A stretch of DNA of 64,000 nucleotides, from the IMG/VR virus record IMGVR_UViG_3300037137_001673, positions 1 to 64,000 of that record. One strand, given 5' to 3'. Under the pieces are notes generated by a model, which saw nothing but the letters and a program-made list of their open reading frames with translations, did no database searches and was not told where the DNA came from. Below are positions 16,720-36,669 of the stretch, one piece after another; position 1 is the stretch's first letter, and the number at the start of each line of letters is the position of its first letter. The stretch comes from a virus. Made by a program: the position numbers and the translations under genes.

Positions 16720-17184
16720 ATGGCTCTAACAGTTAACAATAAGGCAGATCGTGAAATTCTTTATAGATTGCTAGGAACAGCACAGGATGGAAGCTGGCAG
16801 GGTAAACCTGGGGATACAATGAAGTTGTGTCTCTATAAAGGTGGAAGAGCAATTGGTGTTGGAGATAGTAAGTATGGTCTCATAGAAAGTTCAGGATCTG
16901 GATATGCAAAAATTATTCTTGCTCCTAACTCTTGGGTAATTTCTACTACACTTCCCGCCAATGGTGATACTAATATGGCATCTTACGCCCAGCAGACATT
17001 CACCTACACTGGCGCTGACTCTGTTGCGGGATACTATATGTCAACTATGAGAATGCGTGGATCACTTACATCAGCAACTTCCGATAGCACAATTATGTGG
17101 AGGGAAGCATTCACAGATGGTCCATACATCATACCAGCTGGCGGTGGTACTATAAAAATTACTCCTCGCCTGATAATGAGGTAG
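16720..17184 (+). CDS. Small virion beta-sandwich/fibre subunit
   Basis: AGGAG SD; E-x-SGSGYAKI, ASYAQQTF, DGPYIIPAGGGTIKITPR. Confidence 0.6.
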   Translation: MALTVNNKADREILYRLLGTAQDGSWQGKPGDTMKLCLYKGGRAIGVGDSKYGLIESSGSGYAKIILAPNSWVISTTLPANGDTNMASYAQQTFTYTGADSVAGYYMSTMRMRGSLTSATSDSTIMWREAFTDGPYIIPAGGGTIKITPRLIMR

Positions 17185-17269
17185 TCTACGCCAACACCCA
17201 AACGATTTTTTTGAGGTTTAAGTCCATTTTTGCTTGACAAAAATGGACTTTTTTATTATTATAGTCACA

Positions 17270-17982
17270 TGGGTACAATATATATTATAGAAAATAAAAT
17301 TAATGGAATGTGTTATGTGGGACAAACTACACAATCTTTTAATGATAGATTTAGGCAGCATAATCAATCGCATTCTTATATTGGAAATGCTTTACGCAAA
17401 CATGGAGTTGCTAATTTTAATAGGATATTACTAGAAAATATATCAGAAGATAAAATGGATGAAGTAGAAAAAGAATGTATTGTAAAATACAACGCTATTT
17501 ATCCTAATGGATATAATTTACAAGATGGTGGGTGTGGTAATAAGCATCAGCATCCAGAAACTAAACAAAAATTAAGTAAAATACAAGAAGGTAAAATGGT
17601 TGGTGAACTTAATCCCTTCTTCGGTAAGCATCACACTGATGAAAGTAACATGAAAAATGCTGCTGCACATACTGGTAAGATTGGTGGTATGAATGGAATT
17701 GCCCAAACTGATGAAGCTAGGCATCTTATGTCTATTGCTAAAAAAGGTAATACTTATAGGCGTGGTTCTCATCATACTGAAGAAGCAAAAGAGAAAAATC
17801 GTTTGGCTCATCTAGGTGTCATTCCTGTAAATAAAGGAATTCGTGTTCCACATTTGTGTCCAGTTTGTAAAAATCCAGTAAAAGAGAAATATGGTTTAAG
17901 GGGTGAGTTTCAAGGTTATCAAAAATCTTGTGGAAATTTTAATTATATAAAAAGTTTAAGAAAAGTTAAATTATTGGTTTAA
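17270..17982 (+). CDS. GIY-YIG homing endonuclease with NUMOD3 and C-terminal CxxC motif
   Basis: MGTIYIIENKINGMCYVGQT (start approximate; ORF track starts 17230); GKHHTDES repeats; CPVC...CGN. Confidence 0.88.
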
Positions 17983-18002: not shown

Positions 18003-18035
18003 AAGAGCAATCATAATTGATTGCTCTTTTTTTTT
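18003..18035 (+). terminator. Intrinsic terminator (identical copy at 24879)
   Basis: AAGAGCAATC-ATAATT-GATTGCTCTT plus T-run. Confidence 0.85.
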
Positions 18036-18386: not shown

Positions 18387-18396
18387 GTACAGGTAG

Positions 18397-19845
18397 ATGA
18401 CTTACTATTGGGTTGCAGAACGCTATACGGGGGGGACAAAGAACGGAGGAGAATCTACCCCTTGGAATAATTGGGCTGGTATAAACTGGACTACTATTTC
18501 AACCGCACTCAGCTCGGACAGTGTAACAATTTATTTTGATTCTCGCGGGGATTGGTCAGCGCAAGGTTCTGTGGCCGTCGGGTCTTCGGGTAATGCGAGT
18601 TATCGCCTCTACCTTTTGGGGGATGCGAAGTATTGCACAGGTACCTCTACTGTCACATGGTTCACTGAGGATTCTCCAGGGGTTGGAAATACAGGAAACC
18701 GTGCGCTGTTTGGAGATACAATTTACACTGGGACTAACCGTGCTTACGTTACCATTAAGGGCTTTCATATCCAGACGCCTTCATACACTGGGGTAGGAGA
18801 CAATGGAGGTTCATCAGAAGTCAATACCTACATAACGGTTGATAATTGCTATGTGGAGGGACCGACAGGAGCAAGCCAACCGGGTATTAATTTCTCGCGC
18901 TTATCTACTGGGAGCCACGACATCATCGTTAGGTATTGCTATGTCTGGAAGTCAACAGCGGAAGCAGTATATATTGGGCACTCTTCAGAGATGGATAACT
19001 ATCTAACGGGAGTGATTGTCGAGTATAACACACTGGTAGATTGTGGGACTAGTGGCGAAGGTGACATAGACATCAAGCCAAATGTCGAAGCCCCCATCAT
19101 CCGATACAACACCCACTATGATACTTCTCTCGCCGCTGCTTCTTGTGGTGTAGCTTGCTATGCTGATAAGGCCGAGATATACGGCAATAAGTTCTATACA
19201 TTAAAAACGAAAGGCTCCGAGTGGGGTTGGGGCATCATGCTCACCAACTATGGTTCGGATGGGGGGACACGGAAAGTAATCACATCGTGTTTGATCTATA
19301 ACAATTTAATCTATTCAAATGAACTGGATGGGATTAAAATTGACGCTACGGGTGCTGGGGCTAACATGACCGGCATCAAGATCAATAGCAACGTTATAGC
19401 ATCGAATGCCAGATATGGAATTAGCACTGCTGTAGTTTCGACTATTACGATATCCGAGATGAAAAATAACATATTCTATAGCAATGTGAATTACGATGTT
19501 CAGTTTGTAAGTAGCGTGGTGATAACTTCGGCGAATAACAACTGCTGGTATCGCCCGAGTGGTAATAGTTGGTATTACCAAGGAGCAGCGCATACGTGGG
19601 CGGAATGGCAGGGGCATGGGTTTGATGCGGCGGGTGTGAACTCTGATCCACTATTTACCAATCCAGGCTCAGGTGTTTACACGTTGCAAGCGGGTTCTCC
19701 TGGATTAAATACAGGTGCCACTTTGGGATCACCATTCAATATAGACATTCTTGAAGTAGCGAGGCCCCAAGGAGCAGCATATGATATGGGGGCTTATGAA
19801 GCAGTATCGGGTAGCGGGACTAAATTCGTGATGGTGTTGAGGTAA
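18397..19845 (+). CDS. Right-handed beta-helix (pectin-lyase fold) protein with choice-of-anchor Q C-terminus
   Basis: IYGNKFY/IYNNLIYSN/KNNIF repeats; LQAGSPGLNTG...RPQGAAYDMGAYE; raised GC. Confidence 0.8.
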   Translation: MTYYWVAERYTGGTKNGGESTPWNNWAGINWTTISTALSSDSVTIYFDSRGDWSAQGSVAVGSSGNASYRLYLLGDAKYCTGTSTVTWFTEDSPGVGNTGNRALFGDTIYTGTNRAYVTIKGFHIQTPSYTGVGDNGGSSEVNTYITVDNCYVEGPTGASQPGINFSRLSTGSHDIIVRYCYVWKSTAEAVYIGHSSEMDNYLTGVIVEYNTLVDCGTSGEGDIDIKPNVEAPIIRYNTHYDTSLAAASCGVACYADKAEIYGNKFYTLKTKGSEWGWGIMLTNYGSDGGTRKVITSCLIYNNLIYSNELDGIKIDATGAGANMTGIKINSNVIASNARYGISTAVVSTITISEMKNNIFYSNVNYDVQFVSSVVITSANNNCWYRPSGNSWYYQGAAHTWAEWQGHGFDAAGVNSDPLFTNPGSGVYTLQAGSPGLNTGATLGSPFNIDILEVARPQGAAYDMGAYEAVSGSGTKFVMVLR

Positions 19846-19851
19846 TCAAAT

Positions 19852-21138
19852 ATGGCATTTACTGATTACGGTGGGATATTTGCTACCTTCCCTACCCTTG
19901 ATCCGGATGCGGGGGTCGATCCTGGCCTCGACGATGAGATTCATGCTCGGTCCTTCGCTTGCCCTGGAGCTGGGAATCAAGTAATTAACAAAATAGGGGC
20001 ATGGATTGAACGGGGGGCATCCCCTACAAAATGTCGCTTCCTCATTTATACGGATAGTTCGGGAAGCCCGGGTACTATAGTCGCGAACTCCCTGACGACT
20101 GAGGTGACTCTCTCCTTAGCAGCGTGGATTTCCTTCACCTACTCAACGAAACCCGTTCTGGTCGGGGGAACAACCTATTGGCTAGCAACGTGGGGAAGTT
20201 CAACGGGTGGCTTATACGACTTCTCGCCAGGGTACAGTGTCTTTACGGAATTCATCGGGAAGTATACGGCTCAAGTTTATAGTAGCGGCGGAACGCCATC
20301 GGGAGAATCATGGACAGACTTAAATAACCTAGTACAACTTGCGGCGGAGTACCAAGCGGAGGGTGGCGGAGGTGGGGGGGTTTACTCCCCTATTGGTTCT
20401 GCCACTACTTCTGGTTCTGCAACTACTTTTAGTGGTTTATTTATTATAGATGCAGAAACAGGTAACACAAATCAATTCACAGGGATTGCTCAGTCAGGAG
20501 CAACTACCTTTACTGCTCAAAGTGGAACTATTCTCCATGGATCATATAGTTTTCTTTCGCATTTTGCTGGAGCCTATGCCTATGCTTACGGATACAAGAA
20601 TCTTATTTCGAACTATACTGAACTTTATACAAGAATGTATTTTAGAATAGGATCGCTAGCTCTAACAAATGGTCAATATGTTCTACTTCTCACTATGATG
20701 AGCGGGGGAGAAGGTGGAACGGAAATGGCGCAATTTCGTCTCTATCAGAAAGCTACCAATCAGTATGGATATATGTACTGTTGCACGGATCAAACCGGAT
20801 TTCAGGTTAGAGTAAATAATAGTACGGTAGATGTTTTCAATCCCTCAGAAACTCACTATATTGAAGTACACACAAAAATTGGTACAACCGATGGAATTGA
20901 ATCATTGCTTATAGATGGCACTTCCGTTTATTCCGCAACCAACATTGATAATCATACTTATAATATGAATTGCGTCCAATGCGGGGTATTTAATGGTTCA
21001 ACTCCTACAAGTGGGGATGTATATACGGATGACTTGAAGATTTCTCAAACAGGCCCTATTGGAGCGTATCCTACAAGTGGTGTTAGTAGTATTATAACAA
21101 AAGTATTTAATTTTTTTCGAATGAGAAGAAATAGTTAA
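19852..21138 (+). CDS. Two-domain beta-sandwich/lectin-like protein joined by one scaffold-type repeat
   Basis: N-domain CPGAGNQ...GGTTYWLA; linker YSPIGSATTSGSA; concanavalin-like C-domain HYIEVH...LLIDG...YTDDL. Confidence 0.65.
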   Translation: MAFTDYGGIFATFPTLDPDAGVDPGLDDEIHARSFACPGAGNQVINKIGAWIERGASPTKCRFLIYTDSSGSPGTIVANSLTTEVTLSLAAWISFTYSTKPVLVGGTTYWLATWGSSTGGLYDFSPGYSVFTEFIGKYTAQVYSSGGTPSGESWTDLNNLVQLAAEYQAEGGGGGGVYSPIGSATTSGSATTFSGLFIIDAETGNTNQFTGIAQSGATTFTAQSGTILHGSYSFLSHFAGAYAYAYGYKNLISNYTELYTRMYFRIGSLALTNGQYVLLLTMMSGGEGGTEMAQFRLYQKATNQYGYMYCCTDQTGFQVRVNNSTVDVFNPSETHYIEVHTKIGTTDGIESLLIDGTSVYSATNIDNHTYNMNCVQCGVFNGSTPTSGDVYTDDLKISQTGPIGAYPTSGVSSIITKVFNFFRMRRNS

Positions 21139-22706
21139 TGGCGACATATTACATCGACCATGATGGTGGGAATGACGGGAGTGATGGCCTATCGGAAGGT
21201 GCTGCCAAGCTACATATTCCTGCTCTTTCAAATGGTGATTATGTAATTTTCAAGCGTGGTGTAGTTTATCCTCATATTTACACAACTACGGTAGCAAATT
21301 GCACCTTCACAGTTAATGTCTCTTGGGGGATAGGGCAGGCAGTTTGGGGTGCTAATTCTCTTACCGACGATTGGTTAGTATTTGTTAGGCATTCAGGAAC
21401 TGTTATAACAGGTTTATCAGCATCGCACGAGTTAAAGTTCACTGGTACTGGACTTAATAGAGGAACTATTGGCATTTTTCCTTCGTTGGGAGCAATATCA
21501 AGTATTACTGTAGCTTATGCGGAATTTCTAAATATAGCAGGGGCGGGAAAGTCAGAAGGAATTGGCGTTAAGATGGGCGTCACTGATTATTCTGCCGAGC
21601 TATCTACTGTAGTTGTTTCATACTGTTCATTTGACAATTGTTATAGCTATGGAGTTAAAATAAGTTCTGGAACTGGAAGTACACATGATTGCGATATTCA
21701 TCACAACACGTTTACTAATAACGGATCGGGTACCGATCTTCTTGAAACAAATATCAGCAGCAATCTTGGGAATGGTGCCTATGATAATTCATTCCATCAC
21801 AACACGTTGACTGCTGGTGTGAATAGCACAGATGGAATAGAAGTCAACAATTCTCCGAACAAGATCTACAACAATACATTTGATGGGTACAGGTATGCTC
21901 TAAGAATTGATCCGTCATACAATACGAACAAACACGGGATTATTGAATTATATAGTAATCTGATAAAGAACTCATCAGAACGGGGGATAAACTTTGGCGG
22001 GACAAGCACCGCGTTGGGTTATGTTTTAGCATATAACAACCTGTTTGAAAACAATGGAAGCTATGTTATAAACTTTCCAAGCACCGCCGATAATAATGAG
22101 TTTTACTTCAACTCTTTCTACCAGACAGGGGGACATACTTTCTGGTTCCAAGCGGGGGCAACGGGAAATATCGTAAAAAACAACATCGTATTCTCGACAG
22201 GGGATTGCTATGCCCAGGCCGATGCAACCTATAGTAATAATACCGAAAACTACAACATTTTTTATAGAGCAAGTGGAACGATAGTAACAGTAGGAGCCAG
22301 TAATTACACGATAACACAGCTTGCGGCATATCAAGCGGCAGCTACTCCTAATGGGGCGAATAGTCTATTTTCCAATCCTCAATATGTGGGGGCACCGAGT
22401 GATCTTACCATACCAACGGGAAGTCCGGCGAAGGATGCGGGGATAAATGTTGGGATTGCGGTAGATTATCTTGGTAATGCAAGACCCGTGGGGGCGGGGT
22501 ATGACATTGGAGCGTATGAATATAGTTCTGGTTCTAGTGATTACATTTATAACCCAAGAGGAAATGCTTTAACTTCTGGTTTTGCTGATATTTTTCGTAA
22601 CAACTATATTTATAATCCAAGGGGAAATATTTTAACTTCTGGTACTGCTTATTATTATAGAATTACAGGCCTAGGTCCTAGACTAGTCTTCTTTTTAAGA
22701 TACTAA
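21138..22706 (+). CDS. Beta-helix protein with choice-of-anchor Q and two C-terminal scaffold repeats
   Basis: MATYYID start; HHNT/YNNTF repeats; GSPAKDAG...YDIGAYEY; YNPRGNxLTSG twice. Confidence 0.8.
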   Translation: MATYYIDHDGGNDGSDGLSEGAAKLHIPALSNGDYVIFKRGVVYPHIYTTTVANCTFTVNVSWGIGQAVWGANSLTDDWLVFVRHSGTVITGLSASHELKFTGTGLNRGTIGIFPSLGAISSITVAYAEFLNIAGAGKSEGIGVKMGVTDYSAELSTVVVSYCSFDNCYSYGVKISSGTGSTHDCDIHHNTFTNNGSGTDLLETNISSNLGNGAYDNSFHHNTLTAGVNSTDGIEVNNSPNKIYNNTFDGYRYALRIDPSYNTNKHGIIELYSNLIKNSSERGINFGGTSTALGYVLAYNNLFENNGSYVINFPSTADNNEFYFNSFYQTGGHTFWFQAGATGNIVKNNIVFSTGDCYAQADATYSNNTENYNIFYRASGTIVTVGASNYTITQLAAYQAAATPNGANSLFSNPQYVGAPSDLTIPTGSPAKDAGINVGIAVDYLGNARPVGAGYDIGAYEYSSGSSDYIYNPRGNALTSGFADIFRNNYIYNPRGNILTSGTAYYYRITGLGPRLVFFLRY

Positions 22707-24103: not shown

Positions 24104-24868
24104 ATGGGTACAATATATATTTTAGAAAATAAAATTAATGGTAAATGTTATGTTGGACAAACAATTCATTCATTTAATCAAAGATTTAGGCAACATCAAA
24201 ATTCGAATTATGCTATTGGTAATGCTTTGAGAAAATATGGTGTAGATAATTTTAATAAAATCTTAATAGAAGGTATACTAGAAGATAAAATGGATGAATT
24301 AGAAATTGAGTATATACAAAAATATAATTCTATTTTTCCCAATGGATATAATTTTGAAACTGGGTGGCATAAAAATAAGCATGCTTGTGAAGAAACTAAA
24401 AAAAGATTAAGTGAAGTAAATACAGGAAAACATCATTCACTAGAAACAAGAAAAAAGCAGAGTGAAATTAAAAAAGGAAAACATATTTCTATAGAGACGG
24501 AATTTAAAAAAGGAAAAGAAAATCTCCTTTTTGGAAAACATCTTGCAGAAGAAATTAAAGAGAAAATAAGTAAGTCAAATATCGGCAAGCGTCGTTCAGC
24601 AGAAACTATAAAAAATTTAAGTGAAAGTCATAAGGGACAAATTCCTTGGATGAAGGGTAAGCATCATACTGAAGAAGCAATTAAAAAAAATAGTGAAGCA
24701 CATAAAGGACAAATTCCTTATAATAAAGGTGCTCGTAGTATTAGAGCTTGTCCTATTTGCGGTAAGCAACGAAAAGAAAAACTTGTTAAGAGTAAATTTT
24801 GTGGTTATTTAGCAACTTGTGGAAATTTAATCTGTCTAAAAGAGTTAAGGAAGAAAAAAACTGCCTAA
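24104..24868 (+). CDS. GIY-YIG homing endonuclease with NUMOD3 and C-terminal CxxC motif
   Basis: MGTIYILENKINGKCYVGQT; HKGQIPW repeats; CPIC...CGN. Confidence 0.9.
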   Translation: MGTIYILENKINGKCYVGQTIHSFNQRFRQHQNSNYAIGNALRKYGVDNFNKILIEGILEDKMDELEIEYIQKYNSIFPNGYNFETGWHKNKHACEETKKRLSEVNTGKHHSLETRKKQSEIKKGKHISIETEFKKGKENLLFGKHLAEEIKEKISKSNIGKRRSAETIKNLSESHKGQIPWMKGKHHTEEAIKKNSEAHKGQIPYNKGARSIRACPICGKQRKEKLVKSKFCGYLATCGNLICLKELRKKKTA

Positions 24869-24878: not shown

Positions 24879-24910
24879 AAGAGCAATCATAATTGATTGC
24901 TCTTTTTTTT
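24879..24910 (+). terminator. Intrinsic terminator identical to 18003
   Basis: Same hairpin and T-run. Confidence 0.85.
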
Positions 24911-27937: not shown

Positions 27938-28765
27938 ATGGCTGTTACAACTTTGGATGCTGCTTTACAAGGTATGATGCTTCCCTCTGCTTTTTATAAG
28001 GCACAAGTTGGAACTCCTGTTGTTGGAACTATGTATTCCCAATGGGTAGCTCCCGGAAGTCCCGGAGCAGCAACTACTCTTCCCACTGGACTTTTAGCAG
28101 GACAATTTTTTACTTGTGCTGCTGCGCAAGTAGCTGGGCAACTAAAATTTTCTGCTGGTATTAGTGGTGATACTTTTTATCTAGCAAGATTTACTGGTGC
28201 TTCTAATACTACTGGAACATTAATTCTTGCTGATAGGATTTGGGGTGATTCAGTTTCTGGTGTTCCTGTTGGAACACAAACAATTTATTCAGGTTCTTTT
28301 CCTAGGTCTGCTGGAATTGGTGGTGGCGATAGTTCTGGTACTGGTGTTCAGTTAGCAATTGAAGTTTATGCTAGTATTGGTGCTACTGCTTGCACTCCAA
28401 AAGTTACTTATGTTAATTCTGCTGGTACTGCCGGAGATACAGGAACTGCTGCTTATGCAGTTCCTTCTTCTGCTGTTGCTGGAACTTTTATTCCTATTAA
28501 TTTAAAAGCAGGAGCATTTGGAGTAAGAAGTGTAACTGCTTACAATAATATGACTGCTAGAACGCAAGGTGGTGCCTTTGGAGTGGTAGCATATCGTCCA
28601 TTAGCATATGTACCTTGCAATGTAGCTGGAGTTGCTGGTGTAGTTGATTTCTTGACTAGTGGATTTCCAATTATGTTTCCCAATACCATTCCTTTTCTTA
28701 TTTGGATGGCTGGAACTGCTACTGTACCTGTAATTGCTGGTAGTTTTTATTGGTGTTGCGGATAA
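27938..28765 (+). CDS. Ala/Gly/Thr-rich virion protein, paralogue A
   Basis: Late motif at 27912; GTLILADRIW, AYRPLA. Confidence 0.65.
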   Translation: MAVTTLDAALQGMMLPSAFYKAQVGTPVVGTMYSQWVAPGSPGAATTLPTGLLAGQFFTCAAAQVAGQLKFSAGISGDTFYLARFTGASNTTGTLILADRIWGDSVSGVPVGTQTIYSGSFPRSAGIGGGDSSGTGVQLAIEVYASIGATACTPKVTYVNSAGTAGDTGTAAYAVPSSAVAGTFIPINLKAGAFGVRSVTAYNNMTARTQGGAFGVVAYRPLAYVPCNVAGVAGVVDFLTSGFPIMFPNTIPFLIWMAGTATVPVIAGSFYWCCG

Positions 28766-28777
28766 AGGGAAATAACT

Positions 28778-29614
28778 TTGAGTATTACAACTATAAGTTC
28801 AGCAATTTCTTACATGTATGGTCCGCAAACATTTTTTAAAGTACCTACTCCTACTCCTGTTGTTGGAACTATGTATTCACTTTGGACCGCAGCAGGAATG
28901 CCCGGAGCAGGAACCATTCCTCCCACTGGACTTTTAGCAGGACAATTTTTTACTTGTGCTGCTGCGCAAATAACGGGACAAATATATTTTCAAAATCCTG
29001 CTGCTGGGGATACTACTTATTTAGCAAGATTTGCTGGGACTTGTAATACTTATGGAACATTAATTCTTGCTGATAGGATTTGGGGAGATTCAGTTTCTCC
29101 AGTTCGTATTGGAGCACAAGTAATAAATTCTGGTGCTTTTCCTAGGTCTGCTGGAATTGGTGGTGGCGATAGTTCTGGTACTGGTGTTCAGTTAGCAATT
29201 GAAGTTTATACAACCTTGGGTGCTGCTGCTGCTACTCCAAAAGTTTCCTATGTGCCCGTTGGTGGTTCCATGGGTTCAACTGGTGGAGATACAGGAGCTG
29301 CTGCTTACGCTGTACCTGCTACTGCTGCTGCTGGAACTTTTATTCCTATTAATTTAAAAGCAGGAGCATTTGGAGTGAAAGCAGTTACTGCTTACAATAA
29401 CATGACTACTAAAACTTCTGGTGTTCTAGGTTTGGTTGCTTATCGTCCATTAGCATATATTCCTTGTTCGGCACCGGAAATTTATGGAGTAGCAGATTGC
29501 TTAACTGGTGGATTTCCGATTATGTTTCCTAATACCGTTCCAATGTTAATATGGATGGCTGGAACTGCTACTGTTCCTGTAATTTCAGGCCAGTTTCAAT
29601 TTACTCAAAATTAA
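28778..29614 (+). CDS. Ala/Gly/Thr-rich virion protein, paralogue B (tandem duplicate)
   Basis: Long DNA blocks identical to 27938 gene. Confidence 0.65.
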   Translation: MSITTISSAISYMYGPQTFFKVPTPTPVVGTMYSLWTAAGMPGAGTIPPTGLLAGQFFTCAAAQITGQIYFQNPAAGDTTYLARFAGTCNTYGTLILADRIWGDSVSPVRIGAQVINSGAFPRSAGIGGGDSSGTGVQLAIEVYTTLGAAAATPKVSYVPVGGSMGSTGGDTGAAAYAVPATAAAGTFIPINLKAGAFGVKAVTAYNNMTTKTSGVLGLVAYRPLAYIPCSAPEIYGVADCLTGGFPIMFPNTVPMLIWMAGTATVPVISGQFQFTQN

Positions 29615-29624: not shown

Positions 29625-29930
29625 ATGGAAAAAATTTATGTAGGAATAGGAAGAATAACTGCTTCTGCTCCTGCGCAATTTTCAATTTACACAAAACATT
29701 TTATTTACAATCCATTTGTAAATCCTGTTACTTATAATTTTTTCATTTACAAAATTTTAGAAAATAAAAAAACTGCTGAAACATTCCCTATACCACAGGG
29801 AAATACTACTTGTATAAATTCTATTTCAATAGTTTCTGGTTCTGGTCCGCCTGTAAATAATTTTATTTATAATGTTGAAAATTCTTATCGTTTTAATCCT
29901 TTATCAATAGGAGCAAATAATGGCTTCTAA
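29625..29930 (+). CDS. Small hypothetical protein overlapping scaffold start
   Basis: FIYN motifs like the scaffold. Confidence 0.45.
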   Translation: MEKIYVGIGRITASAPAQFSIYTKHFIYNPFVNPVTYNFFIYKILENKKTAETFPIPQGNTTCINSISIVSGSGPPVNNFIYNVENSYRFNPLSIGANNGF

Positions 29931-32900
29931 TGGTTTAGGAAAATTTCCATTTAAAAGTTCTTGGTTTACTACTACCGAAATAATTAATGATGATGATTTT
30001 TGCGATATAGATCATCCATTAAAAAATATATTACAGACCTTCCTATTTGGTGCAGAGGCTGTATATAAAACTTATAATGCTACTGGAAGTTCTGTTACTT
30101 CTGGACTTGCTACTACTTCTGTAGATACTAAAAACTTTATATATAATGCTACTGGAAGTTCATCAACCTCTGGTTCTGCAGATAAATATCGCTGGTCTAA
30201 TTATACAGGATCAGGAACTGCAACTACTTCTGGACTTGCTACTACTTCTAAAACTACAAATACAAAAGAAACTATCTCTACTTTAAAAGCTAAAGGCGTT
30301 CTTTTTGGAACATTAGCTTCTACTCAAAAAAGTGTTACTCTTAACCAAGTTACAATACTTACAGGTAAAGGAAAACTTTACGAACCTACCGTAAAAGTTA
30401 ATTACAGCTACAACGCAACTGGAAGAGTTAATACTTCTGGATTTGCTAATAAAGTTGGTACTTGGCAAGTTGCCTATTTACCAAGAAATTTCTTCCCTAT
30501 TTATATTCCTAGAAATTATTTTACAGATATTTATGAAAGACTTTGTTTTGGATTTGGTTCTATAATTACTTCTGGAATTGCTACTACTTCTAAAACTGAT
30601 GCTGCTGCTTCTAATTTCACTTATAACGCCACTGGAAGTTCATCAACCTCTGGTTCTGCAGATAAATATCGCTGGTCTAATTATACAGGATCAGGAACTG
30701 CAACTACTTCTGGTTCAGCAGATAAATATCGCTGGTCTAATTATACTGGAAGTGGAACTGTAACTACTTCTGGGCTTGCTACTACTCAAAGAGATTTTAC
30801 TTATAATCCAACTGGAACTGCAACTACTTCTGGACTTGCTACTACTTCTATAGGAACAAAGAATTTTATTTATAACGCTACTGGAAGTTCATCAACTTCT
30901 GGTTCTGCAGATAAATATCGCTGGTCTAATTATACTGGAAGTGGAACTGTAACTACTTCTGGATTTACTACTACTCAAAGAGATTTTACTTATAACGCTA
31001 CTGGAACTGCAACTACTTCTGGTTCTGCAGATAAATATCGCTGGTCTAATTATACAGGATCAGGAACTGCAACTACTTCTGGTTCAGCAGATAAATATCG
31101 CTGGTCTAATTATACTGGAAGTGGAACTGTAACTACTTCTGGACTTGCTACTACTTCTGCAGATACAAAGAATTTCATTTATAACGCTACTGGAACTGCA
31201 ACTACTTCTGGACTTGCTACTACTGAAGGTGCCACTACTCTTTCATATTTTGGCTATCAGGATGGAACAGATCAATTATCCATAGGAGCAGCACTTGCTA
31301 GAAAAGGAGCAGGATATGTTTGTCCTGGAACTGGATCGCAAGCAGTAAAAGAACTTTCTGTGCAAATTATTTCTGGAACTACTAATATTAGATTAGGTAT
31401 TTATAATGTAGCTGGAAATCTTATTTTACAGACTTCTAAAAAATCAACTACTGGACCTGGTTGGCTATCTTGGAATGAAAATGAATTAACTTGGTTTATT
31501 CAATCAACTATAATTGGTGGAACTACTTATAAACTTGCAATTGCTAATGATGAAACTTTTGTTATTGCTGGAAACTCAAGTGCGGGAACACTAAATTATA
31601 ATTTAGGAGATTATACAGCAGCTCTACCAGATCCAGAACCAGCTAGTAGTACTACTGGAGGTGAATATAATATAAAGTGTGGAGTTACTTCTACTGATTA
31701 TACAATGGCTTGTGCTGGTTCTGGAACTGCAACTACTTCTGGGCTTGCTACTACTTCTGTAGATACAAAGAATTTCATTTATAACGCCACTGGAAGTTCT
31801 GTTACTTCTGGACTTGCTACTACTTCTGTAGATACTAAAAACTTTATATATAATGCTACTGGAAGTTCATCAACCTCTGGTTCTGCAGATAAATATCGCT
31901 GGTCTAATTATACAGGATCAGGAACTGCAACTACTTCTGGACTTGGTTCTGTTTCATTAGATACTAAGAATTTTACTTATAATGCAACTGGAAGTTCAAC
32001 TACTTCTGGTTCTGCAGATAAATATCGCTGGTCTAATTATACAGGATCAGGAACTGCAACTACTTCTGGACTTGCTACTACTGAAGGTGCGATTTATACC
32101 AAAACTTACGATCCAATTGGAAGTTCAACTACCTCTGGACTTGCTACTACTTCTGTAGATACAAAGAATTTCATTTATAATGCTGTTGGAAGTTCATCAA
32201 CTTCTGGTTCTGCAGATAAATATCGCTGGTCTAATTATACTGGAAGTGGAACTGTAACTACTTCTGGATTTACTACTACTCAAAGAGATTTTACTTATAA
32301 CGCTACTGGAAGTTCATCAACTTCTGGACTTGCTACTACTTCTGTAGATACTAAAAACTTTATTTATAACGCTACTGGAACTGCAACTACTTCTGGTTCT
32401 GCAGATAAATATCGCTGGTCTAATTATACTGGAAGTGGAACTGCAACTACTTCTGGGCTTGGTTCTGTTTCATTAGATACTAAGAATTTTACTTATAATG
32501 CAACTGGAAGTTCAACTACTTCTAAATTTGCTCCTACTTCATTAGATACTAAAAACTTTATTTATAATGCTACTGGAAGTTCTGTTACTTCTGGGCTTGC
32601 CACTACTTCTATAGGAACAAAGAATTTTATATATAATGCTACTGGAAGTTCATCAACTTCTGGTACTGCAGATAAATACCATTGGTCTAATTATACAGGT
32701 TCTGGAACTGTAACTACTTCTGGTAGTGCTGATTATATAGGTCCAGCTAGAATTTATAATACTACTGGAGGAATATTAACTTCTGGAACTGCTAATTATG
32801 TAGTACCAAAATTTATATTTATAGCAACAGCACAGGGAGTTGTCGATGAATATACTACTACAGTAGATTGTTCTACTACTTTAAATATTCAGGAAGGTGA

Positions 32901-35900
32901 TTTACTTGTAGCGACAAGTAGGTGGTATCCATCTACCTTATGGTCATCAGTTGCAGAAATTGGAGGTGCTAATAATTTCACATTGCTAATATTGCTTAAT
33001 AATGGAGCTAGCAATCATTACGAACAGATTGGTTATAAAATTGCTGCTACTGCCAATGTTGCCGCTACAATTAGAGCAACTTGGAACGCGAATACTTTTT
33101 GGAAAAATTTAATTGTTTTTCAGTTTAGACCTGCCCCTGGTTATTCAGTTTCTCTAGATCAAAATGTTAGCACTGCAAATGATGGATTGACTTGGCAAAC
33201 ACCAAATATTACAACTACCGACTTAGATGAAGTAGTATGTGCGATGGTTGCTCATTACCCATATGAGAATTATCCACCTGTTCAAATTGCTGGTACTAAT
33301 GCCGATCTTTATGTAAATGGTCCTTCTGGTGCTTTTGGTTTAAGCCAATTAAGTTATAGCATCTTTACTAGTATACAAACTGACATTTATGCTACTGGAA
33401 CTTTCTCTTATCAGACAGATTTGTGGGGTTGCCAGATAATATCATTTAAGGCACTAGCAGAACATATCTACAATCCTACTGGAATTGTAAATACTTCTGG
33501 ACTTGCTACTACTGTAGGAAATACAAACCCTGTATATATTGCTAATGGAATTGTAAATACTTCTGGACTTGCTACTACTGAAGAATTTAATGCTTATGTT
33601 TATAACGCAACTGGAAGTGTAAATACTACTGGTTTTGCCTCGTTTAGTAGAGATACTATTTACAATGCAATTGGAACAGTAAATACTTCTGGATTTGCTA
33701 TAACTATAGGTTCTATAGCTGGTATATGGAATGCTACAGGAACTGTAAATACTTCTGGATTTGCTACAACTGAAGAACTTGATGCTTATATTTGCAATCC
33801 AGTAGGAAGTGTAAATACTTCTGGAACTGCACAAATTACTCATAGTAATTACATTTATAATCCTACTGGAAGCATAATAACTTCTGGATTTGCCTTAGTT
33901 TCATCTGTTAGTGTTCCTTTTAGAATGCCTGATTTGATAGGTAAAGGAATTCTTTTTGGAGCACCAGCAACTAAAAATAGTGTTACTCTTAATCAAAATA
34001 CTGCTTTTAAAAGTATAGGAAAAATTTATACTCCTACAGTAGTTATTTATCCTACTCGTATTTATATAGCAAGAGGTGGAGTTGCTACTTCTGGTATTGC
34101 TCGCGTTAATTTTAGAAATTACACTTACAACGCAACTGGAAGTGTAAATACTTCTGGTGTTGCTAGAACTATTTTTAAAAATTTTATTTACAATGGAACT
34201 GGAAGAGTAAATACTTCTGGTTTTGCTCTAACTATTGGTGCCTATAAACCAATTGGTTACTGGCCTATTTACTACTGGGCAATTTACTGGCCTATACATT
34301 ACTGGCCTGATTCAATGCCTACTGCTAATTATGTTTATGGCGCATTAGGAATTGTAAATACTTCTGGTGTTGCTGAAACAATTGGTCCTGTTGTTAAAAC
34401 TTACAGTGCAACTGGAAGAATAAATACTTCTGGTTTTGCTACCACACAACAAGGTTATATCTATAATCCTACTGGAAGAGTAAATACTTCTGGTTTTGCA
34501 GCAGGAATTATTTTTAATAACTATCAAAATGTCTTTAATGGAACTGGAAGGATAAGTACTTCTGGATTTGCTTTAACTATAGCAGTTAATGCTCCTTTTA
34601 AATTAACTACTTTAATAGGTAAGGGAATTCTTTTTGGAACTTTAGCTGGCACTGATATTTATCTAAAATCAAATGCAGCATTAAAGAGTTTTGGAAAACT
34701 TTACTCACCTATAGTTACTATTACCGCTACAGGTTATACTTATAATCCTACTGGAAGAGTTTTTACTTCTGGATTTGCTACAACTATAACTTCTGGTTAT
34801 TCCAAGACTTACAATCCAACAGGAAGGGTATTAACTTCTAAATTTGCTCCTACTTCTGTAGATACTAAAAACTTTATTTATAATGCTACTGGAAGTTCAT
34901 CAACTTCTGGACTAGCAACTACTTTTGTATCTAAAGATTTTATTTATAATGCTACTGGAAGAGTTAATACTTCTGGACTAGCAACTACTTTTGTATCTAA
35001 AGATTTTATTTATAATGCTATTGGAATTGTAAATACTTCTGGATTTGCCACAATTTTGTTAAGCACTAGATACTTTATTTATAGTGCAGAAGTAGCAATT
35101 GTTATTACTTCTGGCTTTGCTACAACTTTATTAGTTACAAAAAATTTTGTTTATAATACTTCTGGAACTATTTTAACTTCTGGGTTTGCTTCTACAATTG
35201 GAAATATAACTGCCACTTATAATCCTACTGGAAGAATAAATACTTCTGGAATTGCTACAACTGTACTAGGCACTTCTAATCAAATTTATAATCCTACTGG
35301 AAGAATAAATACTTCTGGATTTGCTACTATACAACAAGGTTATATTTATAATGTAACTGGAAGAATAAATACTTCTGGATTTGCTACTACTTTATTAAAT
35401 ACTTTGACTCCAGTTTATAACACTACTGGAAGTGTATTAACTTCTGGATTTGCTATAACTTCGTTAAGTACAAGAAATTTCACGTATAATACTACTGGAA
35501 GAATAAATACTTCTGGAATTGCTACAACTGTACTAGGCACTTCTAATCAAATTTATAATCCTACTGGAAAAATAAATACTTCTGGACTTGCTACTACTTT
35601 AATAAGTTATAAGAACTTTATTTATAACGCAACTGGAATTATAAATACTTCTGGACTTGCTACAACTAATAAAAATATTTATTCTCAATCTTATAATGCA
35701 ACTGGAAGGGTAAATACTTCTGGTTTTGCCCTCGCTTTTGAATTTAATAATTATACTTACGAACCAAAAGGAAGTTCCACTACTTCTGGATTTGCTAGAA
35801 CTTTAATAAATGCAAAGAACTTTATTTACAACGCAACTGGAAATATAAATACTTCTGGAACTCTTACTTTAGTAATTTCTTTCTTTGTAGTATTTTATGT

Positions 35901-36669
35901 AGCAATCGGAACAGTAAATACTTCTGGACTTGCTACTACTTTAATAAGTTATAAGAACTTTATTTACAATGCAATCGGAACAGTAAATACTTCTGGACTT
36001 GCTACAACTTTATTAAATACAAAGAATTTTGTATATAATGGTACCGGAAGAATTCTTACTGCTGGATCTGCTAGTATAACTACATCTGTATTTATTCAAG
36101 CCTATATATCAATAGTAACTATAAGAACTTCTGGTCTTGCTACTACTTTAATAAGCTATAAGAATTTTATTTATAACGCAACTGGAATTATAAATACTTC
36201 TGGATTTGCTAGAACTACAGAATTTGCTTTATATACTTTTAATACTACTGGAATTATAAATACTTCTGGAACAGCACAGTATCAACGAGGATTTATTTAT
36301 AAAGGAATTGGAATAATTAGAGCTAGTGGTAAAGCAAGTTCAGTTGGTTACATAACTGCTATTTATATAGGAAGAGGAACAATTAGAACCAGTGGATTTG
36401 CTCCTACTGGAAAGAACGAACATTCTTATATAGGAAATGGAATAATTCATACTTCTGGATTTGCTAAAACATCTCGTAAGAGAAAACGCTTTATTTCTTT
36501 CACGGAAGTAGTTGGTGACACAAGTATAAATTACTTTAATCTATTTACAGGGAAAGTTAAAGTAGGTTCTACAGAAATTAGAAAATTATTAAAGGGAAAA
36601 AATTCTGGTAGAGAGGCTGACTTTTCTTATTTTGATGAATGGACCAAAGGCGATGGACGAAAAGAATGA
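29920..36669 (+). CDS. Giant (2249 aa) Thr/Ser/Gly repeat fibre or scaffold protein
   Basis: About 70 units of Y-N-x-T-G-x-x-x-T-S-G-x-A, two inserted globular domains, aromatic-Pro motifs; AGGAG SD. Confidence 0.8.
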   Translation: MASNGLGKFPFKSSWFTTTEIINDDDFCDIDHPLKNILQTFLFGAEAVYKTYNATGSSVTSGLATTSVDTKNFIYNATGSSSTSGSADKYRWSNYTGSGTATTSGLATTSKTTNTKETISTLKAKGVLFGTLASTQKSVTLNQVTILTGKGKLYEPTVKVNYSYNATGRVNTSGFANKVGTWQVAYLPRNFFPIYIPRNYFTDIYERLCFGFGSIITSGIATTSKTDAAASNFTYNATGSSSTSGSADKYRWSNYTGSGTATTSGSADKYRWSNYTGSGTVTTSGLATTQRDFTYNPTGTATTSGLATTSIGTKNFIYNATGSSSTSGSADKYRWSNYTGSGTVTTSGFTTTQRDFTYNATGTATTSGSADKYRWSNYTGSGTATTSGSADKYRWSNYTGSGTVTTSGLATTSADTKNFIYNATGTATTSGLATTEGATTLSYFGYQDGTDQLSIGAALARKGAGYVCPGTGSQAVKELSVQIISGTTNIRLGIYNVAGNLILQTSKKSTTGPGWLSWNENELTWFIQSTIIGGTTYKLAIANDETFVIAGNSSAGTLNYNLGDYTAALPDPEPASSTTGGEYNIKCGVTSTDYTMACAGSGTATTSGLATTSVDTKNFIYNATGSSVTSGLATTSVDTKNFIYNATGSSSTSGSADKYRWSNYTGSGTATTSGLGSVSLDTKNFTYNATGSSTTSGSADKYRWSNYTGSGTATTSGLATTEGAIYTKTYDPIGSSTTSGLATTSVDTKNFIYNAVGSSSTSGSADKYRWSNYTGSGTVTTSGFTTTQRDFTYNATGSSSTSGLATTSVDTKNFIYNATGTATTSGSADKYRWSNYTGSGTATTSGLGSVSLDTKNFTYNATGSSTTSKFAPTSLDTKNFIYNATGSSVTSGLATTSIGTKNFIYNATGSSSTSGTADKYHWSNYTGSGTVTTSGSADYIGPARIYNTTGGILTSGTANYVVPKFIFIATAQGVVDEYTTTVDCSTTLNIQEGDLLVATSRWYPSTLWSSVAEIGGANNFTLLILLNNGASNHYEQIGYKIAATANVAATIRATWNANTFWKNLIVFQFRPAPGYSVSLDQNVSTANDGLTWQTPNITTTDLDEVVCAMVAHYPYENYPPVQIAGTNADLYVNGPSGAFGLSQLSYSIFTSIQTDIYATGTFSYQTDLWGCQIISFKALAEHIYNPTGIVNTSGLATTVGNTNPVYIANGIVNTSGLATTEEFNAYVYNATGSVNTTGFASFSRDTIYNAIGTVNTSGFAITIGSIAGIWNATGTVNTSGFATTEELDAYICNPVGSVNTSGTAQITHSNYIYNPTGSIITSGFALVSSVSVPFRMPDLIGKGILFGAPATKNSVTLNQNTAFKSIGKIYTPTVVIYPTRIYIARGGVATSGIARVNFRNYTYNATGSVNTSGVARTIFKNFIYNGTGRVNTSGFALTIGAYKPIGYWPIYYWAIYWPIHYWPDSMPTANYVYGALGIVNTSGVAETIGPVVKTYSATGRINTSGFATTQQGYIYNPTGRVNTSGFAAGIIFNNYQNVFNGTGRISTSGFALTIAVNAPFKLTTLIGKGILFGTLAGTDIYLKSNAALKSFGKLYSPIVTITATGYTYNPTGRVFTSGFATTITSGYSKTYNPTGRVLTSKFAPTSVDTKNFIYNATGSSSTSGLATTFVSKDFIYNATGRVNTSGLATTFVSKDFIYNAIGIVNTSGFATILLSTRYFIYSAEVAIVITSGFATTLLVTKNFVYNTSGTILTSGFASTIGNITATYNPTGRINTSGIATTVLGTSNQIYNPTGRINTSGFATIQQGYIYNVTGRINTSGFATTLLNTLTPVYNTTGSVLTSGFAITSLSTRNFTYNTTGRINTSGIATTVLGTSNQIYNPTGKINTSGLATTLISYKNFIYNATGIINTSGLATTNKNIYSQSYNATGRVNTSGFALAFEFNNYTYEPKGSSTTSGFARTLINAKNFIYNATGNINTSGTLTLVISFFVVFYVAIGTVNTSGLATTLISYKNFIYNAIGTVNTSGLATTLLNTKNFVYNGTGRILTAGSASITTSVFIQAYISIVTIRTSGLATTLISYKNFIYNATGIINTSGFARTTEFALYTFNTTGIINTSGTAQYQRGFIYKGIGIIRASGKASSVGYITAIYIGRGTIRTSGFAPTGKNEHSYIGNGIIHTSGFAKTSRKRKRFISFTEVVGDTSINYFNLFTGKVKVGSTEIRKLLKGKNSGREADFSYFDEWTKGDGRKE
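30070..36470 (+). repeat. Coding repeat array with core ACTTCTGG
   Basis: Many exact 40-100 nt duplications, e.g. gataaatatcgctggtctaattatac about ten times. Confidence 0.9.

What the first reader, a model, noticed from the sequence alone, without database searches (positions are those of the whole stretch)
16720..36669. Modular neck-appendage locus: foreign cassettes match domains inserted in a giant repeat scaffold and share its linker
Seen: the 2249-aa protein has about 70 YNxTGxxxTSGxA units interrupted by two globular inserts. Insert 1 (~31240-31695; CPGTGSQ...GGTTYKLA) matches the N-domain of gene 19852 (CPGAGNQ...GGTTYWLA). Insert 2 (~32808-33455) aligns end to end with free gene 27231 (GDLL, GYKI, VSLD, PNITT, WG...FK). 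The same AT-rich repeat (ACTTCTGG core) links the two domains of gene 19852 (20380-20433) and occurs twice at the end of gene 21138 (22540-22655). The block lies between gp13 and gp14, which are adjacent in T4. Inference: a plug-and-play appendage in which the repeat is both an assembly tag and a recombination handle for swapping carbohydrate-binding domains.
Basis: partly seen in the sequence, partly recalled or inferred. Interest (0 to 1): 0.82.

Follow-up and report, generated by a model that had tools for sequence, protein, structure and literature searches.

The report
Phage beta-helix fibre with captured domains
An uncultured T4-like phage encodes a 2,249-residue fibre, probably a long beta-helix rod with two binding-type domains spliced in, next to imported bacterial surface-protein genes that carry a few of the rod's own coils; this is an unusual variant of known phage adhesion modules, not a new kind of system.

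Summary
The 2,249-aa ORF has 71 units of 20-23 aa. Insert 2 aligns end to end with free gene 27231 (26% identity, E 6e-15). Insert 1 matches the N-domain of gene 19852 only weakly. A model of the unit finds it, in the whole contig, only in the giant, gene 21138 (two units), gene 19852 (one) and marginally ORF 29625. The GC-rich cassettes are imported bacterial surface-protein domains (choice-of-anchor Q and R, pectate-lyase-like beta-helix).

- **What the unit is:** probably one coil of a right-handed beta-helix. The model has low confidence but matches solved beta-helices at Z 25. The conserved residues would then be fold residues, not necessarily a docking motif.
- **Recombination handle:** little support. 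Free genes and inserts are old paralogues, DNA identity is limited to 23 nt, and a relative at 82% nucleotide identity has the C-terminal 1,220 residues collinear with no unit gained or lost.
- **Modularity over longer times:** real. Elsewhere the same domains are joined, at the same boundary, to unrelated ~20-aa repeats.
- **Location:** neck attachment rests on gene order only. The flanking small families sit in head modules of other phages, including beside the phiCbK head-filament candidate.
- **Assembly tag:** untested.

The scan made other first-stage notes on this same stretch. None had been followed up.

The parts
12796..15246 (+). gp13-like neck adaptor (816 aa). Only aa 557-808 are gp13-like; about 550 aa form an N-terminal extension. 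This is the upstream border of the locus.
   Evidence: phrog_211 E 8.5e-14; PDB neck protein gp13 E 0.013-0.014
16720..17184 (+). Small GC-rich protein (154 aa) ending in a Gly linker and a hydrophobic-Arg tail (PRLIMR)
17230..17982 (+). GIY-YIG homing endonuclease, followed by a 26-nt hairpin (18003-18028) identical to the one after the second endonuclease gene
   Evidence: 47% identical to 24104-24868; hairpins
18397..19845 (+). Beta-helix protein with a choice-of-anchor Q domain. GC 46-49%. Tail KFVMVLR.
   Evidence: NF041518 38 bits against a cutoff of 25; 29% identical to the C-terminal part of gene 21138; tail
19852..21138 (+). Two-domain protein: a choice-of-anchor R N-domain (aa 27-158, the insert-1 type), a poly-Gly run plus one stalk unit, a C-domain homologous to P0045 aa 326-533, and a basic hydrophobic tail
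   Evidence: NF041539 34.6 bits against a cutoff of 30; P0045 matches E 7e-7 and 9e-6; homologues P0165 and P0166
20377..20427 (+). Single stalk-type unit in the linker of gene 19852. GC drops here.
   Evidence: unit HMM i-E 6.8e-5; 23-nt 96% match to 31007-31029
21138..22706 (+). Beta-helix protein (Pfam Beta_helix, choice-of-anchor Q) with a Ser/Gly linker, two stalk-type units and the tail RLVFFLRY
   Evidence: homologues P0154, P0156 and P0157 have signal peptides and no units; P0155 is a mosaic without units
22542..22655 (+). Two stalk-type units grafted behind the DxGAYE end of the beta-helix domain
   Evidence: unit HMM i-E 3e-6 each; best match is giant aa 1290-1325, 61% identity over 36 aa
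22727..24026 (+). Two paralogous small proteins (234 and 180 aa, 27% identical). A homologue follows the insert-2-type gene in the head module of locus L003.
24104..24868 (+). Second GIY-YIG homing endonuclease inside the locus
25062..25511 (+). phrog_644 small protein. It is a homologue of phiCbK gp75, which sits directly upstream of the giant head-filament candidate gp76.
   Evidence: phrog_644 E 2.9e-17; phiCbK 34% identity, E 3e-10
25529..27196 (+). Pectate-lyase-like beta-helix, tailspike-type protein, GC about 50%
   Evidence: PF12708 E 1.3e-12; phrog_7458 tail spike E 3e-12
27231..27908 (+). Free copy of the insert-2 domain family: two tandem beta-sandwich halves plus a C-terminal helix
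   Evidence: AF2 pLDDT 93; 523 family representatives; no Pfam family
27938..29614 (+). Two paralogues (275 and 278 aa, 68% identical) of a large family found almost only in viruses. A homologue lies just after the major capsid gene of MW202795.
29625..29930 (+). 101-aa ORF overlapping the giant's start by 11 nt. It has one marginal unit and several FIYN fragments.
29920..36669 (+). Giant fibre protein: about 71 coil units interrupted by two globular inserts and five shorter non-repeat elements, plus a 65-aa non-repeat C-terminal domain
31252..31737 (+). Insert 1 (aa 445-606), a probable distant choice-of-anchor R-type domain
32803..33474 (+). Insert 2 (aa 962-1185), a member of the gene 27231 domain family. 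Its C-terminal part is present at the same place in relative L011 (79% identity).
33907..34074 (+). One of three ~50-aa KGxLFG elements that break the unit array (the others are at about 30253-30399 and 34582-34737). 75% conserved in the relative.
34237..34344 (+). One of two aromatic/Pro-rich elements (the other is at about 30457-30549). 72% conserved in the relative.
36472..36666 (+). Non-repeat basic C-terminal domain of the giant, 83% conserved in the relative. Candidate attachment end (inference).
36688..38107 (+). Downstream border: a 265-aa protein in the gp14 position and a gp15-like protein, 92% and 90% identical in relative L011

Best explanation
The locus is an accessory adhesion and depolymerase module of a divergent T4-like myovirus.

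**The giant protein.** The 2,249-aa ORF is a real, selected gene for a long fibre. Its 20-23-aa units are most likely successive coils of a right-handed beta-helix stalk, with a Tyr stack, Gly turns, a Thr/Ser ladder and a small interior Ala. At 4.8 A per coil (the usual rise in beta-helices, from general knowledge), 71 coils would give roughly 34 nm of rod, in segments. Two globular beta-sandwich domains have been spliced between coils, much as side domains sit on the beta-helix stem of some autotransporters.

**The upstream genes.** The phage has collected horizontally acquired genes for bacterial cell-surface domains:
- two choice-of-anchor Q beta-helices;
- one pectate-lyase-like beta-helix;
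- one protein with a choice-of-anchor R domain and a second globular domain;
- one free copy of the insert-2 domain.

It also carries small phage proteins of families that elsewhere flank genes of the form 'globular head plus ~20-aa-repeat stalk'.

**The grafted coils.** Stalk-type coils (one or two) and short hydrophobic-Arg C-terminal tails replace the anchor that such domains carry in bacteria. They came from old exchange between the stalk gene and the cassettes. They have been kept, most likely because they fasten the imported proteins to the same appendage by adding their coils or strands to exposed beta-helix ends.

**Shown:** the anatomy, the homologies, the foreign composition, the grafts, purifying selection on the coil core, and fast change at surface positions.

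**Inferred:** the beta-helix fold (low-confidence model), virion location, binding and depolymerase activity, and the docking role of the grafts.
For: **The ORF is real.** It is open over 6.7 kb in a 30% GC genome, and its orthologue in L011 is open over 1,218 aa.

**Selection.** dN/dS is 0.20 at core unit positions and 0.72 at variable ones, against 0.08 and 0.15 for the two genes downstream (gp14-position and gp15-like).

**Fold.** The AF2 model of aa 1640-2010 is all-beta. It aligns over 342 of 371 residues to the Vag8 autotransporter beta-helix (Z 25.0, rmsd 3.6). It also matches phage tailspikes (Z 20.6), pertactin (Z 19.4) and phi29 gp12 (Z 17.0). From general knowledge, a 20-23-aa period is that of beta-helix coils.

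**Cassettes are imported.**
- GC is 45-54% against a 30% background.
- NCBIfam places them in choice-of-anchor Q and R above cutoff.
- The closest homologues of gene 21138 are proteins with signal peptides.

**Grafts are add-ons.** P0154-P0157 end at or just after the DxGAYE motif, without units. P0165 and P0166 join the same N-domain, at the same boundary, to unrelated ~20-aa repeats.

**The same domain set occurs on a different repeat.** P0045 carries the insert-2 type, the g19852-C type, the insert-1 type and a beta-helix.

**A single coil behind a poly-Gly run cannot fold alone** (gene 19852). This argues for a partner.

**The tail motif** occurs in 3 of 140 ORFs of the contig, all in this locus.

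**Neighbour families recur beside fibre genes.**
- phiCbK gp75 lies beside gp76.
- In MW202795 a g25062-like gene, a domain-plus-repeats gene and a g27938-like gene stand in a row just after the major capsid gene.
Against: - The stalk model has mean pLDDT 59.5 from an 8-row alignment made largely of internal repeats. AlphaFold tends to give solenoids for any short Gly-containing repeat, and a trimeric shaft is not excluded.
- No Pfam, PHROG, NCBIfam or PDB sequence match exists for the giant.
- There are no proteomic or imaging data; the phage is known only from metagenomes.
- No interaction test was possible.
- The tails show no similarity to any part of the giant beyond shuffles.
- The tail motif was defined after seeing the sequences.
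- The insert-1 homology is weak.
- The insert-2 fold gives no functional match (Z <= 6.9).
Confidence: 0.5

Rival explanations
1. One reading: a plug-and-play appendage in which the repeat is both the assembly tag and an active recombination handle, so that free cassettes and inserts are swapped in and out of the scaffold between related phages.
For: - Units sit exactly at domain borders in genes 19852 and 21138.
- GC breaks at those borders.
- There is a 23-nt 96% DNA match between the gene 19852 linker and the giant.
- The N-terminal arrays of the giant carry DNA repeats with 80-88% matches, which could support unequal exchange.
- Homologous domains elsewhere are fused to other repeats at the same boundary.
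Against: - Free genes and inserts share only 26-29% protein identity and no DNA similarity.
- Insert 2 has the phage's own GC (36%) while gene 27231 has 47%, so they arrived at different times.
- The relative L011 keeps every unit and the insert-2 site over 1,220 aa.
- The mosaic between gene 21138 and P0155 breaks inside the beta-helix.
- No recombinase, invertase or reverse transcriptase is among the locus ORFs scanned.
- Two homing endonuclease genes inside the locus offer a more ordinary route for moving flanking DNA.
Confidence: 0.12
2. The shared units are only scars. The cassette genes and the giant gene exchanged pieces by illegitimate or short-homology recombination. The leftover coils act as passive linkers or tails, and the imported proteins either attach to the virion some other way or are not virion-bound at all.
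For: - Only one or two units are present per protein, and in gene 19852 the unit lies between two domains like an ordinary linker.
- P0155, the closest phage-type relative of gene 21138, does without units.
- The unit pair of gene 21138 matches several places in the giant almost equally well (scores 91-109).
- No specific partner site was found.
Against: - The units keep all core residues although their DNA has diverged from the giant's beyond detection. This suggests selection rather than decay.
- The two units of gene 21138 are nearly identical to each other.
- Four unrelated cassette proteins end in similar hydrophobic-Arg tails found nowhere else in the contig.
Confidence: 0.25
3. This is a head (capsid) filament system rather than a neck appendage. 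The giant is the counterpart of the phiCbK head-filament candidate, and the small families (g25062, g27938/g28778, g22727/g23484) are its capsid-side base.
For: - The g25062 family lies directly upstream of phiCbK gp76. That protein has 2,799 aa, repeats and a central lectin-like domain, sits in the head module, and is named the most probable head-filament protein in PMC3556154.
- Insert-2-type genes lie between the portal and major capsid genes in L003 and L006.
- In MW202795 the g25062-like and g27938-like genes follow the major capsid gene.
- In this window the major capsid gene is only 7 kb upstream of gp13.
Against: - Here the locus lies between neck genes, next to the place where T4 keeps its whisker gene (general knowledge).
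- The giant shares no sequence with gp76.
- gp76 itself was never detected in virions (PMC3556154).
- In L004 the insert-2-type gene lies beside tail-fibre and lysis genes.
- The gp13-like protein has a 550-aa extension that could be a neck platform.
Confidence: 0.35
4. The units do not form a single-chain solenoid. They form a trimeric intertwined beta shaft, of the triple beta-spiral or triple beta-helix type seen in other viral fibres. The short unit stretches on the small proteins would then be heterotrimer partners for stretches of the giant.
For: - Most phage fibres and spikes are trimers (general knowledge).
- The stalk model is of low confidence (pLDDT 59.5).
- Foldseek found no significant match (best E 0.38).
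Against: - The unit length of 20-23 aa and the conserved pattern (one aromatic, two Gly turns, one small interior residue) fit one beta-helix coil.
- All top structural matches, at Z 14-25 over nearly the whole model, are single-chain right-handed beta-helices.
Confidence: 0.15

Closest known systems
Beta-helix stems of autotransporter and two-partner-secretion adhesins (Vag8, pertactin, IgA1 protease, EtpA, TibA)
   Same: A single-chain right-handed beta-helix built of ~19-25-aa coils. It is long and rod-like, and in some members globular side domains are inserted between coils. The stalk model matches them best (Z 25.0 to 15.2; IgA1 protease also appears).
   Different: - No sequence homology, no signal peptide, and no beta-barrel or TPS domain.
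- Encoded by a phage among virion genes.
- The insert domains belong to other families.
Phage tailspikes and the phi29 pre-neck appendage gp12 (trimeric beta-helix depolymerases)
   Same: The beta-helix fold (Z 17-20.6) and a role in host-surface polysaccharide recognition. Three cassette proteins (18397, 21138, 25529) are of this general type.
   Different: - The giant has about 71 nearly identical coils, with no catalytic groove visible from sequence.
- It carries inserted domains and has no known N-terminal particle-binding domain.
- Its oligomeric state is unknown.
phiCbK gp76, the bioinformatic candidate for the head filament (Gill et al. 2012, PMC3556154)
   Same: - A giant (2,799 aa) phage protein with tandem repeats expanded by duplication.
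- A lectin-like globular domain in the middle, and beta or coil structure.
- A gene directly upstream (gp75) that is homologous to g25062 of this locus.
   Different: - No detectable sequence similarity between the giants.
- gp76 is Gly-rich, with other repeat types.
- phiCbK is a siphovirus, and the gene there sits in the head module.
- The role of gp76 is itself unproven.
Choice-of-anchor domain proteins of bacterial cell surfaces
   Same: Genes 18397 and 21138 (type Q) and gene 19852 (type R) score above the curated cutoffs. For type A, the name marks domains that occur with alternative C-terminal anchors (explained in 10.1101/2023.03.06.531300). Here the anchor position is filled by stalk units and a short tail.
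   Different: - No LPXTG, PEP-CTERM or T9SS signal, and no signal peptide.
- Phage-encoded.
- That types Q and R follow the same naming logic as type A is my own knowledge, not tested here.
Branched multi-depolymerase receptor-binding complexes of phages (CBA120 TSP1-4, Klebsiella phage K64-1)
   Same: Several enzymes or binders of different specificity are encoded side by side and mounted on one appendage. Horizontal exchange of the enzymatic parts is common (general knowledge; both appear among the fold hits).
   Different: In those systems attachment is through conserved N-terminal adaptor domains at the baseplate. Here the shared elements are C-terminal or internal, the scaffold is one giant repeat protein, and the gene position is at the neck.

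Membership tests
Right-handed parallel beta-helix (stalk of the giant) | Coil period of about 18-25 residues with a conserved interior and turn pattern | tested here: met
   Spacing is 23/20/22/21 aa. Y0, G4, T8, S9, G10 and A12 are present in 64-69 of 71 units.
Right-handed parallel beta-helix (stalk of the giant) | Three-dimensional match to solved beta-helices over most of the array | tested here: inconclusive
   The model matches at Z 25.0 (342 aa, rmsd 3.6) and there are 163 chains at Z >= 8, all top ones beta-helices. However, the model itself has pLDDT 59.5 and pTM 0.59, and Foldseek's best E is 0.38.
Right-handed parallel beta-helix (stalk of the giant) | Sequence-profile match (Pfam Beta_helix / PbH1, NCBIfam parallel beta-helix repeat) | tested here: not met
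   No Pfam, PHROG or NCBIfam hit for the giant at E <= 0.01.
Choice-of-anchor Q domain (genes 18397, 21138) | Score above the curated NCBIfam cutoff | tested here: met
   NF041518 scores 38.0 and 43.3 bits against a cutoff of 25.
Choice-of-anchor R domain (gene 19852 N-domain; insert 1) | Score above the curated NCBIfam cutoff | tested here: inconclusive
   Gene 19852 scores 34.6 bits against a cutoff of 30, which meets the test. Insert 1 gets no hit at E <= 1. It scores 13.1 bits against a four-member profile and reaches z about 6.6 against shuffles.
Insert-2 / gene 27231 domain family (unnamed) | Full-length collinear profile match | tested here: met
   Pairwise E 5.8e-15. The profile finds 523 representatives, 265 of them at E <= 1e-10. 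No Pfam model covers the family.
T4 neck genes gp13 / gp14 / gp15 as borders | Homology of the flanking genes to gp13, gp14 and gp15 | tested here: inconclusive
   gp13 is met (phrog_211 E 8.5e-14; PDB gp13 E 0.013). gp15 is weak (Pfam E 0.003, below cutoff). gp14 gets no hit in Pfam, PHROGs or PDB.
T4 fibritin (wac) neck whiskers | Trimeric alpha-helical coiled coil with a C-terminal foldon | tested here: not met
   The modelled array (aa 1640-2010) is predicted all-beta with no helix, and the rest of the protein is mostly the same repeat. No fibritin family hit.
Scaffold-and-dock systems of the cellulosome type | Enzyme-borne docking modules that bind repeated receptor modules on a scaffold protein | not testable with these tools
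   The only findings are shared units on the scaffold and on two or three cassette proteins, and a shared tail motif. No complex prediction or binding assay was available.
Programmed cassette switching (invertible segments, shufflons, diversity-generating retroelements) | A site-specific recombinase or reverse transcriptase, with inverted or template repeats, at the locus | tested here: not met
   No such family is found among the locus ORFs of 140 aa or more and ORF 29625 (the two homing endonuclease genes were not scanned). All genes lie on one strand. The free and inserted copies are 26-29% identical.

The most novel reading that the evidence does not exclude
The giant beta-helix is a docking scaffold, and imported proteins are mounted on it by 'coil complementation'. 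A protein carrying one or two stalk-type coils, plus a short hydrophobic tail, would complete or extend an exposed end of a stalk segment, much as curli-type and other beta-solenoid subunits template on each other. This would be a new, sequence-programmable way for a virus to fit horizontally acquired enzymes and lectins onto its particle. The other lineage-specific ~20-aa repeats found on the same domain families (P0165, P0166, P0045, L006, MW202795) would be the equivalent address codes of other phages.
Probability: 0.18. Interest if true: 0.8.

Novelty: new variant of a known kind. Interest (0 to 1): 0.5.

Why it matters
The proteins that form head and neck fibres of phages are mostly unidentified. 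The phiCbK filament is still a bioinformatic candidate, and the fibre proteins of phage 7-7-1 are unknown (PMC3556154, PMC12796354).

This locus links four things:
- a giant repeat protein;
- two small, widespread and unannotated viral families;
- an unnamed double beta-sandwich domain family with more than 500 representatives at 50% identity;
- bacterial 'choice-of-anchor' domains.

Together they form one recurring module, which gives testable candidates for such fibres in many uncultured phages.

If the grafted coils prove to be attachment tags, they would explain how a phage can adopt foreign surface-binding proteins without evolving a new adaptor each time. They would also offer a simple handle for mounting chosen proteins on phage particles in laboratory systems.

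Tried and rejected
**Searches that found nothing or nothing clear**
- The giant has no match in Pfam, PHROGs, NCBIfam or PDB sequences. A word-indexed protein search of aa 1190-2249 found nothing among proteins of 1,236-3,936 aa. The protein atlas gave only weak viral hypotheticals.
- Close relatives were not found in IMG/VR with the gp14-position protein, the giant's C-terminal half, g27938 or a unit DNA pattern. The last gave two chance hits. They were not found in GenBank phages either.
- One metagenome scan found a single relative, L011. Its contig ends inside insert 2, so its cassettes cannot be seen.
The contexts of P0045, P0155, P0165 and P0166 could therefore not be read.
- Foldseek on the gene 27231 model gave only low-TM jelly-roll hits.
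- A second carrier of the L006 repeat was sought in that locus and not found.
- hhalign of the MW202795 middle protein against the insert-2 family is only suggestive (E 0.0023, probability 12.5%).

**Ideas rejected**
- *The units are N-glycosylation sequons (N-x-T).* Positions N1 and T3 are only about 60% conserved between orthologues, while the fold positions are 90-100% conserved.
- *The hydrophobic-Arg tails copy the start of the KGxLFG elements of the giant.* They score no better than shuffles.
- *T4-type late promoters precede each cassette.* The motif is enriched, but most copies lie on the minus strand inside the giant, as a by-product of the unit's codons.

Full report
**Setting.** The window is bases 1-64000 of a 75,970-bp IMG/VR virus contig, judged about 38% complete. 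It has about 30% GC. It encodes a major head protein (3932-5482, phrog_138), a gp13-like neck adaptor (12796-15246) and a tail sheath (38920-40581, phrog_23). The sheath is at most 34% identical to any sheath in GenBank phages, so this is a distant T4-like myovirus. All genes of the locus 16720-36669 lie on the plus strand.

**Check of the observation.**
- A regular expression finds 71 units in the 2,249-aa ORF, and a unit HMM finds 74. Unit spacing is 23, 20, 22 or 21 residues. Six positions are nearly invariant: Y0 66/71, G4 69/71, T8 69/71, S9 68/71, G10 68/71, A12 64/71.
- Gene 27231 aligns with giant aa 962-1184 from its first to its last strand (26% identity, E 5.8e-15).
- Gene 19852 aa 35-112 aligns with giant aa 466-540 at 29% identity. 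One of 2,000 shuffles reaches that score. A small family profile gives 13.1 bits, and NCBIfam does not see insert 1 directly. I call this homology probable but weak.
- The unit HMM, run on all six frames of the whole contig, hits only four ORFs: the giant, gene 21138 (two units, i-E 3e-6 each), gene 19852 (one unit, 7e-5) and ORF 29625 (0.009). The shared repeat is therefore not chance.
- At the DNA level only a 23-nt 96% match links the gene 19852 linker to the giant.

**What the unit is.** An AlphaFold model of aa 1640-2010 is all-beta (pLDDT 59.5, pTM 0.59). It was built with the orthologue and the other arrays as alignment rows. Aligned against 48,161 solved chains, it matches right-handed beta-helices over nearly its full length:
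- Vag8 autotransporter, Z 25.0 (342 residues, rmsd 3.6);
- cyanophage Pam1 tailspike, Z 20.6;
- a beta-helical antifreeze protein, Z 19.5;
- pertactin, Z 19.4;
- phi29 gp12, Z 17.0.

Foldseek alone found nothing significant. The confidence is low, so the fold is an inference. Even so, the unit length and the conserved pattern (one aromatic, two Gly turns, a Thr-Ser pair, a small Ala) are what a beta-helix coil needs. The motif's conservation is then explained by folding and need not mark a docking site.

**Selection on the giant.** A metagenome contig (L011, Ga0209777_10002681) is 82% identical in DNA to window 33005-38109. The 1,220 residues that can be compared, from the middle of insert 2 to the C-terminus, are collinear with one single-residue gap, so no unit was gained or lost. 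Overall dN/dS is 0.50, against 0.08 and 0.15 for the two genes downstream. It is 0.20 at core unit positions and 0.72 at the variable ones. Insert 2, the KGxLFG and aromatic/Pro elements and the C-terminal domain are 72-83% conserved. The gene is real, its scaffold is constrained, and its surface changes fast. The contig ends inside insert 2, so the relative's cassettes are unknown.

**The cassettes.** GC rises to 45-54% in 18250-20350 and 25600-27850, and falls at the grafted units.
- Genes 18397 and 21138 carry choice-of-anchor Q domains, and gene 19852 carries a choice-of-anchor R domain, all above curated cutoffs.
- Gene 25529 is a pectate-lyase-like beta-helix.
- The nearest relatives of gene 21138 are proteins with signal peptides that end at or just after the DxGAYE motif. 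P0155 shares about 78% identity with gene 21138 at both ends and about 27% in the centre, and it lacks the units. The units on gene 21138 are therefore an addition, and the mosaic breakpoints lie inside the beta-helix.
- Homologues of the gene 19852 N-domain (P0165 at 50% identity, P0166 at 41%) continue, from the same boundary, into unrelated ~20-aa repeats.
- P0045 strings the insert-2 type, the g19852-C type, the insert-1 type and a beta-helix on yet another ~20-aa repeat.
- The insert-2 family has 523 representatives at 50% identity, mostly free ~230-aa proteins, and no Pfam model covers it. Its model (pLDDT 93) is two tandem beta-sandwiches with only generic fold matches (Z <= 6.9).

Modularity of 'globular domain plus short-repeat stalk' is thus real over long evolutionary times.

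**Against an active recombination handle.**
- The inserts and the free genes are too diverged to recombine.
- Insert 2 has the phage's GC while gene 27231 does not.
- The comparable part of the relative is fixed.
- No recombinase is present in the locus.
- Two GIY-YIG homing endonuclease genes inside the locus carry identical terminator hairpins. A third, at 38130-38615, is absent from the relative. They offer an ordinary way to move neighbouring DNA.

**For a docking role (inferred).**
- One coil behind six glycines (gene 19852), or two coils behind a Ser/Gly linker (gene 21138), cannot form a stable beta-helix alone.
- They keep every core residue, although their DNA no longer resembles the giant's.
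- Genes 16720, 18397 and 21138 end in a basic-hydrophobic-Arg tail found in no other ORF of the contig. Gene 19852 has a variant of it.
- The tail motif was defined after the fact, and the tails do not resemble any part of the giant.
- No complex prediction was available, so this remains a hypothesis.

**Where on the particle.** Gene order suggests the neck: the gp13-like gene lies upstream, and a gp14-position gene and a weak gp15-like gene lie downstream. The small families point elsewhere.
- g25062 (phrog_644) is homologous to phiCbK gp75. That gene sits directly upstream of the 2,799-aa repeat protein gp76, which has a lectin-like domain and is called the most probable head-filament protein in PMC3556154, though it was never detected in virions.
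- In MW202795 a g25062-like gene, a 'domain plus 20-aa repeats' gene and a g27938-like gene stand in a row just after the major capsid gene.
- In L003 and L006 insert-2-type genes lie between the portal and capsid genes.
- In L004 one lies beside tail-fibre and lysis genes.

I rate neck and head about equally likely.

**Verdict.** It is unsupported on ongoing repeat-mediated swapping, and untested on assembly. The system is a new variant of known phage adhesion and depolymerase modules, with a possible new attachment principle that deserves a direct test.

Noticed in passing
window 18003-18028 and 24879-24904; 38130-38615: Both GIY-YIG genes inside the locus are followed by an identical 26-nt hairpin and T-run. 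A further GIY-YIG gene between the gp15-like gene and the sheath gene is absent from relative L011, which has 302 nt there instead of 812 nt. The homing endonucleases are therefore polymorphic between relatives.
   Followed up: partly
window 12796-15246: Only the last ~250 residues of the gp13-like neck protein match gp13 families. About 550 N-terminal residues have no family match and could be a neck-borne platform or binding domain.
   Followed up: no
window 7330-12341 (minus strand): An island of two ATPase-like genes, a large HNH-family gene and a GIY-YIG gene lies on the opposite strand between the major head gene and the gp13-like gene.
   Followed up: no
window 15277-16644: A 455-aa, mostly helical, Lys/Glu-rich protein with one hydrophobic membrane-like stretch sits between gp13 and the locus. 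It has no family match.
   Followed up: no
window 29625-29930: A 101-aa ORF overlaps the giant's start codon by 11 nt in another frame. It carries one marginal unit and several FIYN fragments. It may be a cap, a chaperone or a split-off N-terminus of the giant.
   Followed up: partly
P0045, P0165, P0166; L006 9995-11749; L008 (MW202795) 2332-3453: In other phages and metagenomes the same globular domain families are followed by lineage-specific ~20-aa repeats of quite different sequence, often ending in a short basic tail. This looks like a general 'head domain plus short-repeat stalk' class of phage proteins.
   Followed up: partly
window 25062-25511: The g25062 family (phrog_644) also occurs in satellite phage MiniFlayer (gene 6, 40% identity), in many Gordonia phages (once annotated as a minor tail protein) and in all phiCbK-like Caulobacter phages.
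   Followed up: partly
free homologues of gene 27231 (alignment A3): After a Gly-rich linker, the free ~230-aa family members end in one of a few short tail types: an IVP...Y..RLR type, or a TEH...L.F type as in gene 27231. This suggests exchangeable C-terminal address peptides.
   Followed up: no
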